A stretch of 64,000 bases of DNA, from NCBI GenBank assembly GCA_964016885.1, contig OZ024757.1, positions 41,416,001-41,480,000 on the forward strand, read 5' to 3'. The translations under genes and the position numbers were made by a program. The notes beneath the pieces were generated by a model. It was not told where the DNA came from and did not search any database. It saw only the letters and a list, made by a program, of their open reading frames with translations. This DNA comes from Eledone cirrhosa (taxonomy: Eukaryota). This document shows, one piece after another, positions 490 through 39,620 of the stretch; the first letter of the stretch is position 1; every line of letters starts with the position of its first letter.

Positions 490-2007
490 CTAAAGGGTTA
501 AACCAGCTGAATCCAGCCAAAATTCCTTCACCTGTTTCTGTTAAAACCGGCTGTAAGTAGCCACTCATACCGATGTTAAGGTATTGTTCTCAAAATAAAT
601 ATCAAGATCTCATAGATTCGATACCATGTGAGGTAATTATGTAAAGTAAAGACTTTACCAAGAAAACATAATAGTAAATATAGAGTAATGTAAATTCTAA
701 AGGGTTAACTCTTTAGCATTTAAACCGGCCATATCTGGCCAGAATTCTCTCAACTCTTTCTGTTCAAACTGGCTATAACTAGCCACTCATATTGATGTTA
801 AGGTATTGTTCTCAAAATAAATATCAAAATCTTATGGGTTTGATAGCATGAAAATACAATAGTAAATATAGAGTAATGTAAATGTTATGTGAGATATTAT
901 GTGAGGTAAAGCCTTTACCATGAAAACATAATAGTAAATATGGAGTAATGTAAATACTAAAGGGTTAAAAGTAACGTATAACATACATACAGTAGTAAAT
1001 ATAGAGTAATGTAAATACTAAAGGGTTAAAAGTAACGTATAACATACATACAGTAGTAAATATAGAGTAATGTAAATACTAAAGGGTTAAAAGTAACGTA
1101 TAACATACATACAGTAGTAAATATAGAGTAATGTAAATACTAAAGGGTTAAAAGTAACATATAACATACAGTAGTATATATAGAGTAATGTAAATACTAA
1201 AGGGTTAAAAGTAACATATAACATACATACAGTAGTAAATATAGAGTAATGTAAATTCTAAAGGGTTAACTCTTTAGCATTTAAACCGGCCATATCTGGC
1301 CAGAATTCTCTCAACTCTTTCTGTTCAAACTGGCTATAACTAGCCACTCATATTGATGTTAAGGTATTGTTCTCAAAATAAATATCAAAATCTTATGGGT
1401 TTGATAGCATGAAAATACAATAGTAAATATAGAGTAATGTAAATGTTATGTGAGATATTATGTGAGGTAAAGCCTTTACCATGAAAACATAATAGTAAAT
1501 ATGGAGTAATGTAAATACTAAAGGGTTAAAAGTAACGTATAACATACATACAGTAGTAAATATAGAGTAATGTAAATACTAAAGGGTTAAAAGTAACGTA
1601 TAACATACATACAGTAGTAAATATAGAGTAATGTAAATACTAAAGGGTTAAAAGTAACGTATAACATACATACAGTAGTAAATATAGAGTAATGTAAATA
1701 CTAAAGGGTTAAAAGTAACGTATAACATACATACAGTAGTAAATATAGAGTAATGTAAATACTAAAGGGTTAAAAGTAACGTATAACATACATACAGTAG
1801 TAAATATAGAGTAATGTAAATACTAAAGGGTTAAAAGTAACGTATAACATACATACAGTAGTAAATATAGAGTAATGTAAATACTAAAGGGTTAAAAGTA
1901 ACGTATAACATACATACAGTAGTAAATATAGAGTAATGTAAATACTAAAGGGTTAAAAGTAACATATAACATACAGTAGTATATATAGAGTAATGTAAAT
2001 ACTAAAG
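490..2007. repeat. Tandem MITE copies with 61-bp arrays of the MITE end
   Basis: A ~560-bp block is duplicated (680-1260 and 1240-2007). The unit TATAGAGTAATGTAAATACTAAAGGGTTAAAAGTAACGTATAACATACATACAGTAGTAAA is repeated about 5x and 8x. Confidence 0.9.
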
Positions 2008-13125: not shown

Positions 13126-13191
<66 letters not shown>

Positions 13192-13347
13192 AAGAAGCCA
13201 TGAATACAGATATGTACATAAATATATATATATATATGTATATATATACGTATGTATATATATATTTAATATATATGTATATATATTTAATATATATATA
13301 TGTAAATATATACCTCACTACGCAATGCTTCAAGTAAACTACCATTT

Positions 13348-13391
<44 letters not shown>

Positions 13392-13545
13392 GTATATCTA
13401 TGTAGATGTATGTGTGTGTGTATGTATATATATATTTATATATATATATATATACACACACACACGTATAAATGTAAATAAATCTATATACATATATGTA
13501 AGTATATATATATATGTATATATATGTATATATATATATATATGT

Positions 13546-13576
<31 letters not shown>

Positions 13577-13620
13577 CAATGATATTAAATAAATGGAAAC
13601 TATATTTATAAAACCATATT

Positions 13621-13683
13621 TATTTTATTATATATATTTCAAGGGTACCAAAACACATAGGTACGCTTTCCTCAGATAAAATA
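13621..13683 (-). ncRNA. Type I hammerhead ribozyme, family A copy 1
   Basis: Minus strand reads TATTTTAT-CTGAGGA-AAGCGTACC-loop-GGTACCCTT-GAAA-TATATA-TA-ATAAAATA. Stem I is 8 perfect bp, stem II 8/9 bp, core intact. Confidence 0.85.
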
Positions 13684-16244
13684 CAAAGTTTGTTTTATAA
13701 ATAGAGACATACCCAGGAAAATCATACCTTATCAGTTGGATATTCTCTAGATAGTGGAAATATTAGGGATATTTCGAAACTTGTGGCTGAATATGCAAAT
13801 GAATATGTAAATTATTGAAAAACAACCGTTTATTTATACGACTATGGAGAGAAAGAAGAGAAAAGAGAAGGATAAAATAGAGAGAAAGAAGGGAAAAAAA
13901 GGGAAGATGAATAAAAAAAACTCATATAACGTTAATTTGAGGGAAATATATTCAAACATCTGACTATGTATATATGTAAGTATATATCTTAATATGTATG
14001 TGTATTTATATTCAAGGGATATTTTACGATTATTAGTTGTTTAAAATTTGTTTACAATATAATATTTTTCTTTTGTTATAAGTAGATAAATAAATAAATA
14101 GATGGGTATATCATGTTATAGATAGTTGTTCTAATGAGTTATGAGGGATATTGGTTTTGTATTTTATATAAATAAATATGTATTTAAAATTGAGAATTAA
14201 ATAAATATGTATTTAAAATTGAGAATGATTTAAAATTAAGTTAAATTAAATTAAATTAACTGATTTAAGTAAGAATATTTATATTTATATGATTGAAAAG
14301 GGAAGATAAGGAAAAAACTCCGGTTTTATTTATTTATTCGTTAGTGTGAGACTATTTAGTCAAAATAAGTATGGATGTTTAATATACATTTAGCCATAAT
14401 CAGTTAGTGGTTATTAATCTATTGAAAAAATATTGAAACATTTTTTTTTTATTTTAATTGAAAAAAAAAAAAAAAATAGTAAATAATTTTTTTTTTATTA
14501 AAAATGAAATAAAAAAAAATAAATAAATAAATTTAAAAAATTTTTTTTTAATTAAAAGAATTTTTTTTATTTATTTTTATTTTTTCAATATTTCTTCAAT
14601 ATTTTTTCAATATTTTTTTTCAAAACTTGTAAGATATCTTCTAAACGCCAATTCTATGAGAGGTTTCCCTTATGTTATGTTACTAAATGCTTCCAAATTC
14701 TTCATTAGTTCCAAAATTATTTTTTTTAAATCTCAAGAAGCATCTTTTTATTATAAAAATATGGGAATTAAAGGGTTAATAAATATATTTTAAAGTTTTA
14801 TTATATATATTTTATATTTTTAAATACATATGGAACGATGGTAATAGTCAAATGGTGTCGACACTTGAGATAAAATAATTGAAACTTGTTCTAAAACTAT
14901 TTTAAGTTTTAGTCATAAGAGGGAACGACCATTTTATCAATTTATATATTTTTACCTTTATATTTATTTCATATTTTATTTTTATATTCTATTTTTATAT
15001 TTTATTTATATATTTTATTTATATATTTTATTTATATATTTTATTTATATATTTTATTTATATATTTTATTTTTATATTTTATTTTTATATTTTATTATA
15101 TTTGTTGCTATTTTACTTTCTGTTTCTCTCTCTCGTCGTCATTTCAAACGTCCATTAAGAAATTAAAAGATATCAATATTTCTCCAACGTATCAAATATG
15201 GAAATATTTAGGAAGAAAGTTGGCTGTAAGTGGTGATATGTGTGTCGAAGGATTGAAGAAGATTTGATGTCAGAAATTAAACACGGTCATCAATTGATTG
15301 AAGATGCTTGACACCTATCAATCACTTGAGATATTTTTATTTTTCTCTTCTGGCTAAACAAAATCTATAACTTTCACTCATCACTTTATATACGAGACAT
15401 ATGATGGAGTCACTATATACAATCATTTAACCCTTTTGTTAACCAATTCCTAATGAAAGACACTGCCTATGATGATTTTCAATTAATTTTGAAAAGAAAT
15501 ATCAAGAATTTTGGCACTTTGGTATTGAGCACTCTTTCTTAGTGTTTATATATATATCATGACCTGAGCATAAAATTTAATGCGCAAATTTGTATTACAC
15601 AAGTACTGTATACCCCCCCCCCCTCTCCACACAGACACACATAGAAACACACACACACACCATTGCTAAAATACAATTTGTTTTATGCAATTTAATTTAT
15701 AACAATTCTTCTTTCCATTGAAAAATATTCCTCAATAAATCAGATCTAACCCACAAAGCTTGTCGTAATATTTCCAATGAAATGTTTCACAGATATTGAA
15801 AGATTTTCAGATGTTATATATTAGTAAGAATATATCATTATGATTTCTTATATTTTTAACCTATTTCTGTTCTATCTTCCTCTCTTTCTTTTTCTTTTCC
15901 TTTTATATGATCTTTGAGATGAATGAAAGTATACCAAAATAAAATTTTATAAAAATGTTGATAAGAAAGGAGGTAGTAGTAGTAGAAGAAGAAAACCTTT
16001 AGAAATATAATGAATGAAGAAAGCAATTTTTTTTGTTAAAACAGGAATTTTTCTCAGAACAACAACTTTACCATAAAAGAATTCATGCCAGAGAAATAAT
16101 TTTTAATCTTTACATATCTCCTTAAATCCAATTGGAACTGTTATATTGCCCAAAAGATGGGAAATATTGTTTTATGTGTGGATGGGAAGAAGAAATAGAG
16201 AATGGATTTTTCTTGCTTTATATACAAATCATGTCTTGAAAAAT

Positions 16245-28793: not shown

Positions 28794-28939
28794 TTAACAT
28801 CTATTTTTGCATGCTAGCATAGGTTAGATGAGTTGTCTTGTTGTGAGAAATGCCACATCAGGTGACCATGTCTTGCTCATACAAAACTATTTCTGGCTTG
28901 GTTTCTACAGCTGGATGTCCTCTCTAATGCCAACCACAT

Positions 28940-29385
28940 TTACAGTGAGTACTGGGTGCTTTTCTGTCATGACACCTACATGACCACTTGACAGTGTGGG
29001 CTGGGTGCTTTTTGTCATGACACCTACATGACCAATTGACAGTGTGGGCTGGGTGCTTTTTCTCATGACACCTACATGACCACTTGACAGTGTGGGCTGG
29101 GTGCTTTTTGTCATGACACCTACATGACCACTTGACAGTGTGGGCTGGGTGCTTTTTCTCATGACACCTACATGACCACTTGACAGTGTGGGCTGGGTGC
29201 TTTCTGTCATGACACCTACATGACCACTTGACAGTGTGGGCTGGGTGCTTTTCTGTCATGACACCTACATGACCACTTGACAGTGTGGGCTGGGTGCTTT
29301 TTCTCATGACACCTACATGACCAATTGACAGTGTGGGCTGGGTGCTTTTTGTCATGACACCTATACAACCACTTTACAGAGTGGG

Positions 29386-29388
<3 letters not shown>
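28940..29388. repeat. 48-bp minisatellite from the same SINE segment
   Basis: Unit ACAGTGTGGGCTGGGTGCTTTTTGTCATGACACCTACATGACCACTTG, about 9 homogeneous copies, continuous with the SINE tail at 28795-28940. Confidence 0.9.
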
Positions 29389-32799: not shown

Positions 32800-33870
32800 T
32801 CCAGCAATTCTTTCCTCAGACATTCTAACCACATATCTGTAGTATCAGAGCTGTGATCTGTCAATCCAGCAATTCTTTCCTCAGACATTCTAACCACATA
32901 TCTGTAGTATCAGAGCTGTGATCTGTTAATCCAGCAATTCTTTCCTCAGACATTCTAACCACATATCTGTAGTATCAGAGTTGTGATCTGTTAATCCAGC
33001 AATTCTTTCCTCAGACATTCTAACCACATATCTGTAGTATCAGCGCTGTGATCTGTTAATCCAGCAATTCTTTCCCCAGACATTCTAACCACATATCTGT
33101 AGTATCAGAGCTGTGATCTGTCAATCCAGCAATTCTTTCCTCAGATTCTAACCACATATCTGTAGTATCAGAGCTGTGATCTGTTAATCCAGCAATTCTT
33201 TCCTCAGACATTCTAACCACATATCTGTAGTATCAGAGTTGTGATCTGTTAATCCAGCAATTCTTTCCTCAGACATTCTAACCACATATCTGTAGTATCA
33301 GCGCTGTGATCTGTTAATCCAGCAATTCTTTCCCCAGATATTCTAACCACATATCTGTAGTATCAGAGCTGTGATCTGTCAATCCAGCAATTCTTTCCTC
33401 AGATTCTAACCACATATCTGTAGTATCAGAGCTGTGATCTGTTAATCCAGCAATTCTTTCCTCAGACATTCTAACCACATATCTGTAGTATCAGAGCTGT
33501 GATCTGTTAATCCAGCAATTCTTTCCTCAGACATTCTAACCACATATCTGTAGTATCAGAGCTGTGATCTGTTAATCCAGCAATTCTTTCCTCAGATATT
33601 CTAACCACATATCTGTAGTATCAGAGCTGTGATCTGTTAATCCAGCAATTCTTTCCTCAGACATTCTAACCAAATATCTGTAGTATCAGAGGTGTGATCC
33701 CTCAATTCAGAGAAGTAGCAACTCTACCTGGAATGACTCTTTGATCTCCAAGCTACACATTCTTTCCTCAGACATTCTAACCACATGTCCATAGTATCAG
33801 AGCTGTGATCTCTCAATTCAAAGAAGTAGCAGCTCTACCTGGAGTGACTCTCTGATCTCTTAGCTATGCA
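32800..33870 (-). repeat. 65-bp minisatellite (~14 units) derived from an RTE coding segment
   Basis: Unit TCCAGCAATTCTTTCCTCAGACATTCTAACCACATATCTGTAGTATCAGAGCTGTGATCTGTTAA translates on minus to RSQL*YYRYVVRMSEERIA (RTE RQLRWYGHVxRM motif). An RTE-like 3' end lies at 32648-32800. Confidence 0.9.
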
Positions 33871-38770: not shown

Positions 38771-38789
38771 ATATGATATATATATATGT

Positions 38790-39060
38790 AGAGGTTATAT
38801 TTAATTTGTTGGGATTCAACAAGCTTAAAATTTTTTTAACTGATATAAAGCACTCCACAGGTTAGTGGAGTAAATAAACTATCCAGGAAGCTCCAACCGT
38901 TAAGGTTGTCTTTTTTCCGGGTATGTCAATATTTATTTATAAAACAAATCTGTATTTTATCTGATGAAAGCGCACCATAATTTGCCTTGGTTGCCCTTGA
39001 AATATGTATAATAGAATAAATATGGTTTTATAAATATAGTTTCCATTTATTAATATATTG
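38790..39060 (+). mobile_element. Family A hammerhead-bearing short element (~270 bp)
   Basis: Starts GAGGTTATATTTAATTTGTTGGGATTCAAC, carries the HHR, ends TTTCCATTTATTAATATATTG. Related pieces at 13585-13756 (-), 35808-35935, 40000-40100 and 43540-43720, all embedded in (TA)n. Confidence 0.75.
38953..39018 (+). ncRNA. Type I hammerhead ribozyme, family A copy 2
   Basis: TATTTTAT-CTGATGA-AAGCGCACCA...TGGTTGCCCTT-GAAA-TATGTA-TA-ATAGAATA. Homologous to 13621-13683. Confidence 0.85.
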
Positions 39061-39290: not shown

Positions 39291-39341
39291 GCATGATATA
39301 TATTTCTGTTACATGGTTATGCATGCAACATCATCAGATAC
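39291..39341 (-). ncRNA. Type I hammerhead ribozyme (canonical core, AUC triplet)
   Basis: Minus strand reads GTAT-CTGATGA-TGTTGCATG-CATAAC-CATGTAACA-GAAA-TATATA-TC-ATGC. Stem II 9 bp, stem I 4 bp, palindromic stem III. Confidence 0.8.
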
Positions 39342-39545
39342 TTATACAATCATAGGTATAGTTAATGCAATCATGGGGCTATGTTACTGACTGGTCATGT
39401 ATTACCATCTCGTTGTGATGCCAGCAGACATATATATATATATATATATATTGCAAGGTTTTTGATATGAAATCGTGTGTCGAAACAAAGAAGAAAATAT
39501 AAATGGCGTAGACATACAATACAAAAGGAGGAAACATAATAGTAC

Positions 39546-39583
39546 CACTGATGATGTTGCAGATGCGCAACGAAAGAACTTTG
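39546..39583 (+). ncRNA. Hammerhead-like motif with weak stems I and III
   Basis: CA-CTGATGA-T-GTTGC-AGATGC-GCAAC-GAAA-GAAC-TT-TG. Core and stem II intact, stem I only 2 bp. Confidence 0.5.
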
Positions 39584-39589
39584 ACAGAC

Positions 39590-39620
<31 letters not shown>

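What the first reader, a model, noticed from the sequence alone, without database searches (positions are those of the whole stretch)
13585..13756. Family A ribozyme shows compensatory covariation across three dispersed copies
Seen: stem II reads AAGC-GT-ACC/GGT-AC-CCTT (13.6 kb), AAGC-GC-ACCA/TGGT(T)-GC-CCTT (38.9 kb) and AAGC-AC-ACCA/TGGT-GT-CCTT (40.0 kb). Paired positions change together, a C.C mismatch is retained, loops diverge freely, stem I changes only to G.U wobbles and the core varies only at N7. Inference: selection acted on RNA structure in the source elements, so the ribozyme was functional in a ~270-bp non-autonomous element.
Basis: partly seen in the sequence, partly recalled or inferred. 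Interest (0 to 1): 0.75.

Follow-up and report, generated by a model that had tools for sequence, protein, structure and literature searches.

The report
Penelope retroelement hammerhead ribozyme ends
These three look-alike stretches are broken-off ends of a very common jumping gene and carry a likely self-cutting RNA fold, which is a known arrangement; the new detail is a small twice-repeated motif beside both places where copies end, which may tell the copying enzyme where to start.

Summary
The three hammerhead motifs and their paired changes are real (the 13.6-kb copy lies on the minus strand). They are not a 270-bp non-autonomous element. Each is a 5'-truncated end of a Hydra-clade Penelope-like retroelement. 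All three lineages occur about 190 nt upstream of an RT-endonuclease ORF, and full ribozyme-ORF-ribozyme copies exist. The genome holds about 30,000 intact-core matches and 43,818 exact tails.

Across 28 lineage representatives, 7 of 9 stem II pairs change on both sides. A tree-aware test finds 6-9 compensatory events against 1.5-1.7 expected (0/300), but no single pair is significant over all column pairs. Individual copies decay, so selection acted on source elements. Stem III is self-complementary, which points to dimer-type cleavage. Cleavage is untested and no RNA run was listed.

Such ribozymes and their covariation are published, and this scan noted Hydra-clade ends before on other DNA. 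Not found in print: copies stop at two fixed points about 92 nt apart, each just before a copy of one motif, inside a covarying 5'-leader fold. This is a candidate signal for internal initiation of reverse transcription.

The parts
13569..14569 (-). 5'-truncated copy (about 1.0 kb of 3' UTR plus pLTR) of a Hydra-clade Penelope-like element; ends at fixed end A and runs into (TA)n 13138-13576
   Evidence: Colinear with the 3' UTR of ORF-bearing copies L062 and L100; TA array
13621..13683 (-). Type I hammerhead: stem I 13683-13676/13628-13621, core C3 13675, stem II 13668-13641, self-complementary stem III 13637-13630, predicted cut after A 13629
13603..13703 (-). Extended stem I: 12-bp outer helix 13703-13692 with 13614-13603 beyond an internal loop
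   Evidence: Sequence, folds, pair counts (88.7% paired, only 1 pair with a double change)
38779..38882 (-). Inverted tail piece, i.e. the first ~95 nt of the element's 5' leader between fixed ends A and B; holds motif copy 1, the 5' arm of the long helix and the inner hairpin
   Evidence: Matches the leader of read-through copies L310 and L338
38878..39060 (+). 5'-truncated pLTR copy, ends at end A then (TA)n
38953..39018 (+). Type I hammerhead with bulged stem II 38968-38998; stem III 39002-39009; predicted cut after A 39010; outer stem I helix 38934-38945/39025-39036
   Evidence: the same stem II lies upstream of a 741-aa ORF in L350
39996..40102 (+). Short pLTR copy of a third lineage; hammerhead 40000-40064, predicted cut after A 40056; 5' arm of the outer stem I lost by truncation
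   Evidence: this lineage flanks an ORF in L352 (one base differs in stem II) and precedes one in L338
35774..35956 (-). Same family, tail piece up to end B without the ribozyme core
43503..43741 (.). Same family: inverted tail (about 43530-43607, minus) joined to a forward copy that lacks the CUGANGA half of the core

Best explanation
The three motifs are hammerhead folds in the terminal repeat (pLTR) of a Hydra-clade Penelope-like retroelement, left behind as 5'-truncated copies in TA microsatellites, and they likely cleave as dimers in the element's RNA. Shown: a full element reads ribozyme, ~190-nt leader, ORF, long 3' UTR, ribozyme. Shown: stem II changes in compensating pairs between lineages. 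Shown: copies stop about 50 nt past the predicted cut site (end A) or about 92 nt further on (end B). Inferred: two ribozymes share an 8-bp stem III, possibly helped by the element's protein, and cut after AUA to trim the RNA to unit length. Inferred: selection acted only on source copies that kept transposing. Inferred: reverse transcription starts internally at ends A and B on RNA not cut at that ribozyme, and one insertion uses both starts on opposite DNA ends, giving the inverted structure seen at 38.8 kb.
For: Linkage to the ORF: 27 of 73 ORF starts have an intact ribozyme within 300 nt upstream, 26 of them 185-204 nt from cut site to start codon; all three window lineages are represented. 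Same-strand ribozymes lie about 1.1-1.3 kb behind the ORF in many copies. Three of 5 long-frame loci fetched show two same-strand ribozymes 3.8-4.2 kb apart around the ORF. ORF motifs RW[R/C], DKT, CxCX5C, YVG, CxxC and CxH match the Hydra definition (PMC8557442 section 11). Covariation: 7 of 9 stem II pairs have double changes, 94.1% of cells paired, slid controls 38-54%. Tree-aware test: 6 and 9 same-branch compensatory events vs null means 1.45 and 1.72, 0/300 each. Stem III centre is U-A, U.G or C-G, all pairing in a dimer. Double-hammerhead energy is -20 to -22 kcal/mol vs -8 to -10 for two monomers. In a sample chosen by the tail alone, 72 of 97 are intact and the nine single-base core changes each occur once (read by eye). 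177 of 212 ends run into TA repeats.
Against: No cleavage data. No Rfam hammerhead match. No Pfam or PDB hit for the ORF, so its domains rest on motifs. No single pair is significant over all column pairs (best E 0.5-0.9), and the test is my own, not R-scape. Stem II pair 8 is unpaired in 6 of 28 rows; the outer stem I shows little double change. Monomer folding z-scores are weak, -0.6 to -2.0. The cofold minimum is not the double hammerhead in any of the 4 pairings, being lower by 1.6-8.4 kcal/mol. Published PLE hammerheads cleave poorly alone (PMC4209133). One needed the element's protein and was dispensable for insertion in vitro (PMC11167929). The fold could therefore be kept for protein binding more than for cutting.
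Confidence: 0.85

Rival explanations
1. A short non-autonomous element (retrozyme- or SINE-like, ~270 bp) with its own ribozyme, mobilised in trans.
For: Most copies are short. Only 506 exact matches of the pre-ATG motif stand against 43,818 tails. Retrozymes are proposed to derive from pLTRs (bioRxiv 10.64898/2026.07.22.740005, passages).
Against: 5' ends are ragged while 3' ends are fixed. The 13.6-kb copy runs 1.0 kb into the 3' UTR. Every window lineage has ORF-bearing members. I saw inverted pairs and occasional direct twins, but no arrays of short monomers (seen in loci; not counted systematically).
Confidence: 0.05
2. The fold is conserved as a protein-binding or translation element and cleavage is weak or incidental.
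For: Copies extend past the cut site, so templates were not cut there. Position 10.1 varies (A, G, U) against a mostly fixed U. In Anolis the ribozyme was dispensable for insertion in vitro (PMC11167929). Ribozymes in viral 5' UTRs promote translation (PMC13725137, passages).
Against: All catalytic core positions stay fixed across lineages whose stems differ, also in the tail-selected sample. The dimer-compatible stem III and the NUH site are kept.
Confidence: 0.15
3. The apparent covariation is shared ancestry of a few subfamilies plus CpG decay, with no selection on structure.
For: The three copies give only two double changes. A.C mismatches recur at a CpG. Per-pair E-values over all column pairs are not significant.
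Against: Events were counted on a tree, also on one built without stem II: 6-9 vs 1.5-1.7 expected. Double changes occur at seven different stem II pairs. Ranks 1, 2 and 4 of 5671 column pairs are structure pairs.
Confidence: 0.05

Closest known systems
Hydra clade of C-terminal EN+ Penelope-like elements, including Hydra-1_Obim (Craig et al. 2021, PMC8557442; passages, section 11, supplement part 2 and passages)
   Same: DKT, CxCX5C linker, C-terminal CxxC/CxH, (TA)n targets, 5' truncation with inverted piece and tail. Type I hammerhead near the 3' end with a short self-complementary stem III; several listed Hydra ribozymes have U.U at the base of stem II.
   Different: The ribozyme sequence differs from that of Hydra-1_Obim and from all rows of File S2 (by eye), so this is another family. 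Stem II is longer (9-10 bp with C.C) and stem I is extended. Unit length is 3.8-4.2 kb vs generally under 3 kb. The tail is about 92 nt vs the 30-40 bp given for PLEs. Tens of thousands of copies.
Minimal/dimeric hammerheads of metazoan PLEs (Cervera and de la Pena 2014, PMC4209133; parts 1-2 of 4 read)
   Same: [quoted passage not shown]
   Different: No G10.1-C11.1 pair with an extra unpaired base. Here 10.1.11.1 is N.U, followed by two pairs and a fixed C.C.
PAc Poseidon element of Anolis (Frangieh et al. 2024, PMC11167929; parts 1-2 of 4 read, supplements not read)
   Same: Two fixed genomic ends that bound a 'tail', downstream of the ribozyme; there shown to be two internal RT start sites.
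   Different: There both starts lie in one AC-rich stem-loop inside the ORF. Here the two ends are about 92 nt apart in the 5' leader, and each is followed by a copy of one motif.
Metazoan non-LTR retrozymes (PMC7229834, passages; bioRxiv 10.64898/2026.07.22.740005, passages)
   Same: Type I hammerhead, AT-rich, high copy number, related to pLTRs.
   Different: Retrozymes are non-coding tandem monomers of 150-450 bp. These copies are ragged ends of a coding element.

Membership tests
Type I hammerhead ribozyme | Core CUGANGA ... GAAA ... NUH in type I order | tested here: met
   All three copies, site AUA
Type I hammerhead ribozyme | Stems I and II paired, with compensatory changes | tested here: met
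   inner stem I 100% paired, stem II 93.7% with 7 of 9 pairs doubly changed; 0/300
Type I hammerhead ribozyme | Stem III formed | tested here: inconclusive
   Unfavourable in the monomer by 2.9 kcal/mol; 8 legal pairs in the dimer, but the dimer is not the cofold minimum
Type I hammerhead ribozyme | Match to an Rfam hammerhead model | tested here: not met
   No hit at gathering score or at E<=10 and E<=1; this tests the library's models, not the ribozyme class
Type I hammerhead ribozyme | Site-specific self-cleavage | not testable with these tools
   No assay; no RNA holder listed
Hydra-clade PLE | DKG modified to DKT | tested here: met
Hydra-clade PLE | CxCX5C linker before a C-terminal GIY-YIG-type endonuclease | tested here: met
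   Motif CxCX5C then VVYK...YVG; the domain is called from motifs, Pfam gave no hit
Hydra-clade PLE | N-terminal RWK motif | tested here: inconclusive
   Aligned position reads RWR or RWC here; RWK or RWR in the 10 unnamed homologues
Hydra-clade PLE | C-terminal CxxC and CxH motifs | tested here: met
Hydra-clade PLE | CCHH motif absent from the endonuclease | not tested
   No alignment with canonical PLE endonucleases was made
Hydra-clade PLE | Insertion into (TA)n | tested here: met
   177 of 212 ends run into TA repeats
Hydra-clade PLE | Hammerhead in the pLTR, 5' truncation, inverted piece, tail | tested here: met
   an inverted piece within 1.4 kb upstream in 12 of 30 loci
Hydra-clade PLE | Placement in the clade by RT phylogeny | not tested
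   Only compared by eye with the printed Hydra-1_Obim protein; no tree
Non-LTR retrozyme | Non-coding, non-autonomous | tested here: not met
   ORF-bearing members in all three lineages
Non-LTR retrozyme | Tandem arrays of 150-450-bp monomers | tested here: inconclusive
   None seen in the fetched loci; not counted genome-wide
Non-LTR retrozyme | Abundant circular RNA | not testable with these tools
   No RNA holder listed

The most novel reading that the evidence does not exclude
Hydra-clade elements carry a duplicated RNA signal (RCUCC-N6-9-GUYGAGYRCU, a bulged hairpin) that positions their telomerase-like RT for internal initiation. One copy stands just 3' of each of the two fixed ends, so a protein dimer could start at both sites of one RNA and copy onto both ends of a cut TA repeat. 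The two copies can alternatively pair with each other across the covarying long helix, forming a pseudoknot right before the AUG. That would give a switch between a replication fold and a translation fold on a ribozyme-trimmed, uncapped RNA.
Probability: 0.35. Interest if true: 0.65.

Novelty: new member of a known kind. Interest (0 to 1): 0.36.

Why it matters
The ribozyme and its covariation are expected for Penelope-like elements and add one more family. What could matter is the leader. How these telomerase-related elements choose their two internal start sites is open, and my paper searches found only one element studied in vitro (PMC11167929). This family offers tens of thousands of insertions, two mapped ends, a motif copy beside each end and a covarying fold across lineages. 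Together these give a precise mutational test of the initiation signal and of what the ribozyme is for.

Tried and rejected
Searches without result. Rfam: no hammerhead or other relevant match. Pfam and PDB: no hit for the ORF; the homologue search gave 38 unnamed proteins at 30-46% identity. RNA evidence: no RNA holder listed; contigs of 4 runs show presence only. No read-through copy was found for the most divergent lineage, L208. Of 2 hits, one (L348) read through to an ORF and one (L349) did not. Look-up of earlier notes by sequence found nothing.

Pseudoknot versus two local hairpins in the leader: not decided. Both are at least 91% paired and neither has a double change in the deciding helix; single-sequence folds favour the hairpins.

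Calls not used. Searches (inner hairpin; two helices) had my structure string off by a column; replace them. The core tally was mis-registered. One search was read in the wrong frame. End offsets were blurred by AT-rich alignment into the TA repeat; one search replaces them. The 'no core change among shared haplotypes' line is circular, because those haplotypes were picked by an intact-core pattern.

A heterodimer of the 38.9-kb and 40.0-kb copies is possible on paper, but they are separate insertions of different lineages and nothing shows co-transcription.

Full report
Observation. The three motifs are present as described. The 13.6-kb copy is on the minus strand (core C3 at 13675); the others are on plus (38961, 40008). 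Each reads as a type I hammerhead: an 8-bp AU-rich stem I, CUGANGA, a 9-10-bp stem II with a C.C mismatch at position 4, GAA, an 8-nt self-complementary stem III, and a predicted cut after AUA. A further 12-bp helix extends stem I beyond an internal loop. Among the three copies only two stem II pairs change on both sides. Rfam has no matching model.

Copy number. The window lies in a 3.0-Gb genome (G000); earlier scan notes call it a cephalopod, which I did not test. Each window copy has near-identical relatives elsewhere. An intact-core pattern matches 18,154 times. A second pattern for other bases at the foot of stem II matches 12,014 times. The 27-nt stretch behind the ribozyme matches 43,818 times. 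Reversed controls were 0 each time.

What the element is. Longer copies continue upstream into a long AT-rich UTR and then an ORF. The window's 13.6-kb copy itself covers about 1.0 kb of that UTR. The ORF has RW[R/C], DKT, YxDD, CxCX5C, VVYK...YVG and C-terminal CxxC and CxH. These are the marks given for the Hydra clade of Penelope-like elements (PMC8557442, section 11). Pfam and PDB gave no hit, so the domain calls rest on motifs and on a by-eye comparison with the printed Hydra-1_Obim protein. The published Hydra-1_Obim ribozyme has a different sequence, so this is another family. Of 73 ORF starts examined, 27 have an intact ribozyme upstream, 26 of them 185-204 nt from cut site to start codon; all three window lineages are among them. 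Of 5 long-frame loci fetched, 3 have two same-strand ribozymes 3.8-4.2 kb apart around the ORF. L351 holds an uninterrupted 742-aa frame with all motifs. L350 holds a 741-aa frame (YxDD not matched) behind a stem II identical to the 38.9-kb copy.

Covariation. 234 distinct contexts gave 81 stem II haplotypes. For the alignment I took 21 of the 30 haplotypes seen in two or more loci and added 7 divergent copies (A3). The 9 left out were close variants of included lineages. Two of them carry an A.C mismatch or a changed C.C, so the percentage paired is somewhat flattered. Result: 94.1% of cells paired; 7 of 9 stem II pairs change on both sides; inner stem I 100% paired; slid controls 38-54%. My own tree-aware simulation (not R-scape) found 6 same-branch compensatory events with a tree from all columns and 9 with a tree built without stem II. 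Null means were 1.45 and 1.72, reached by 0 of 300 simulations each. Ranks 1, 2 and 4 of 5671 column pairs are structure pairs, but none is significant over all pairs (best E 0.5-0.9). Against: pair 8 is broken in 6 of 28 rows, and the outer stem I helix has one doubly changed pair of 12.

Where selection acted. In 97 copies chosen by the tail alone, 72 have an intact core and stem III. The other 25 are truncated, deleted or point-mutated, and the nine single-base core changes occur once each (read by eye). In 61 distinct full-length copies the core differs from the nearest shared haplotype at 11 of 671 sites, like stem I at 15 of 976. Single copies therefore decay, and the structure was kept in the propagating lineages. 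It is also already in print for PLE hammerheads in general (PMC4209133).

How the ribozyme likely works. Stem III costs 2.9 kcal/mol in a monomer. Two copies can share an 8-bp stem III, and that double hammerhead is 11.6-12.6 kcal/mol better than two monomer folds, though it is not the cofold minimum. The centre of stem III is U-A, U.G or C-G across lineages, all pairing in a dimer. The natural partner would be the second pLTR of the same transcript; this is inferred. Published PLE hammerheads cut poorly alone (PMC4209133). One needed the element's protein and was not required for insertion in vitro (PMC11167929). No RNA run was listed, so expression and cutting are untested.

The ends and the leader. 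Of 212 distinct downstream contexts, 130 stop at end A (about 50 nt past the cut site), 72 at end B, 8 between, and 2 read through; 177 run into TA repeats. The sample is enriched for end A, because my DNA queries stopped there. In 23 read-through copies the leader holds two copies of RCTCC-N6-9-GTYGAGYRCT, 91-99 nt apart. For end A, 116 of 118 placed copies first depart from the read-through sequence 2-9 nt before motif 1 (26 unplaced). For end B, 33 of 33 placed copies depart 3-10 nt before motif 2 (33 unplaced). TA similarity blurs the exact base. Motif 1 persists in lineages whose surroundings have diverged. As a check on a lineage not used before, a pattern search found one read-through copy, L348. 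The pattern fixed only the first 4 letters of motif 2; the rest of the motif and an ORF followed. In 13 leaders, a 12-bp helix closing just before the AUG has 4 pairs changed on both sides, three of them visible in L348. Each motif can fold as a bulged hairpin, or the two can pair with each other across that helix as a pseudoknot; the counts do not separate these. In the Anolis element the two ends bounding the tail are internal RT start sites (PMC11167929), so I infer the same here, with the motif as the likely positioning signal. Earlier scan notes on two fixed ends in retrozymes of this genome prompted the count. A note from another genome mentions a small hairpin in a Hydra tail (seen after my analysis, not checked).

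Novelty. Paper searches found the ribozyme class, the clade (with an octopus member) and the two-start mechanism in print. They found no description of this family or of a duplicated motif beside both ends. The library lacks most subscription journals; the supplement of PMC11167929 was not read, and bioRxiv supplements are closed. What I saw: PMC8557442, passages, section 11, supplement part 2 and passages; PMC4209133 and PMC11167929, parts 1-2 of 4; PMC7229834, PMC13725137 and bioRxiv 10.64898/2026.07.22.740005, passages. Hammerhead numbering and the NUH rule are recalled.

Verdict. Observation confirmed; interpretation partly supported. This is a new family of a known kind, already noted in outline by this scan on other DNA. 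Interest 0.36, carried mostly by the testable leader motif.

Noticed in passing
window 39337 (minus strand, about 39295-39345): A separate hammerhead with a 9-bp stem II, self-complementary stem III and AUC site lies between the 38.9-kb and 40.0-kb copies.
   Followed up: no
window 53597 (minus strand): A short-stem minimal hammerhead of another family.
   Followed up: no
window 39883-39915 (+) and 39549-39590 (+): Two more hammerhead-like remnants, one with a damaged core; four or five such motifs fall within 1.1 kb.
   Followed up: no
L308, L309, L315, L346 leaders: Both motif copies read GTAGAG instead of GTYGAG in the same sequences (4 of 42), a concerted change that would fit recognition by one factor; probably a single event, and L314 does not follow it.
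   Followed up: partly
L189, L203, L209 (GGAC lineage): The outer stem I has a different sequence but can still pair, in another register; the alignment did not capture this.
   Followed up: no
L063, L064, L040, L154 flanks: Fragments of other Hydra-type ORFs (30-60% identical) lie next to or inside these insertions, consistent with nesting in TA repeats.
   Followed up: no
window 14482-14618: A short inverted piece of the 3' UTR at the 5' end of the 13.6-kb copy, overlapping its last bases.
   Followed up: partly
window 932-2007, 28933-29388, 32800-33699: Minisatellite arrays of 61, 48 and 65 bp; no long non-repetitive open frame of 200 codons or more was found in the window.
   Followed up: no
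runs X5, X6 (organisms B and C): A few contigs match the family at 85% or more at low depth; this could be relatives or carry-over.
   Followed up: no
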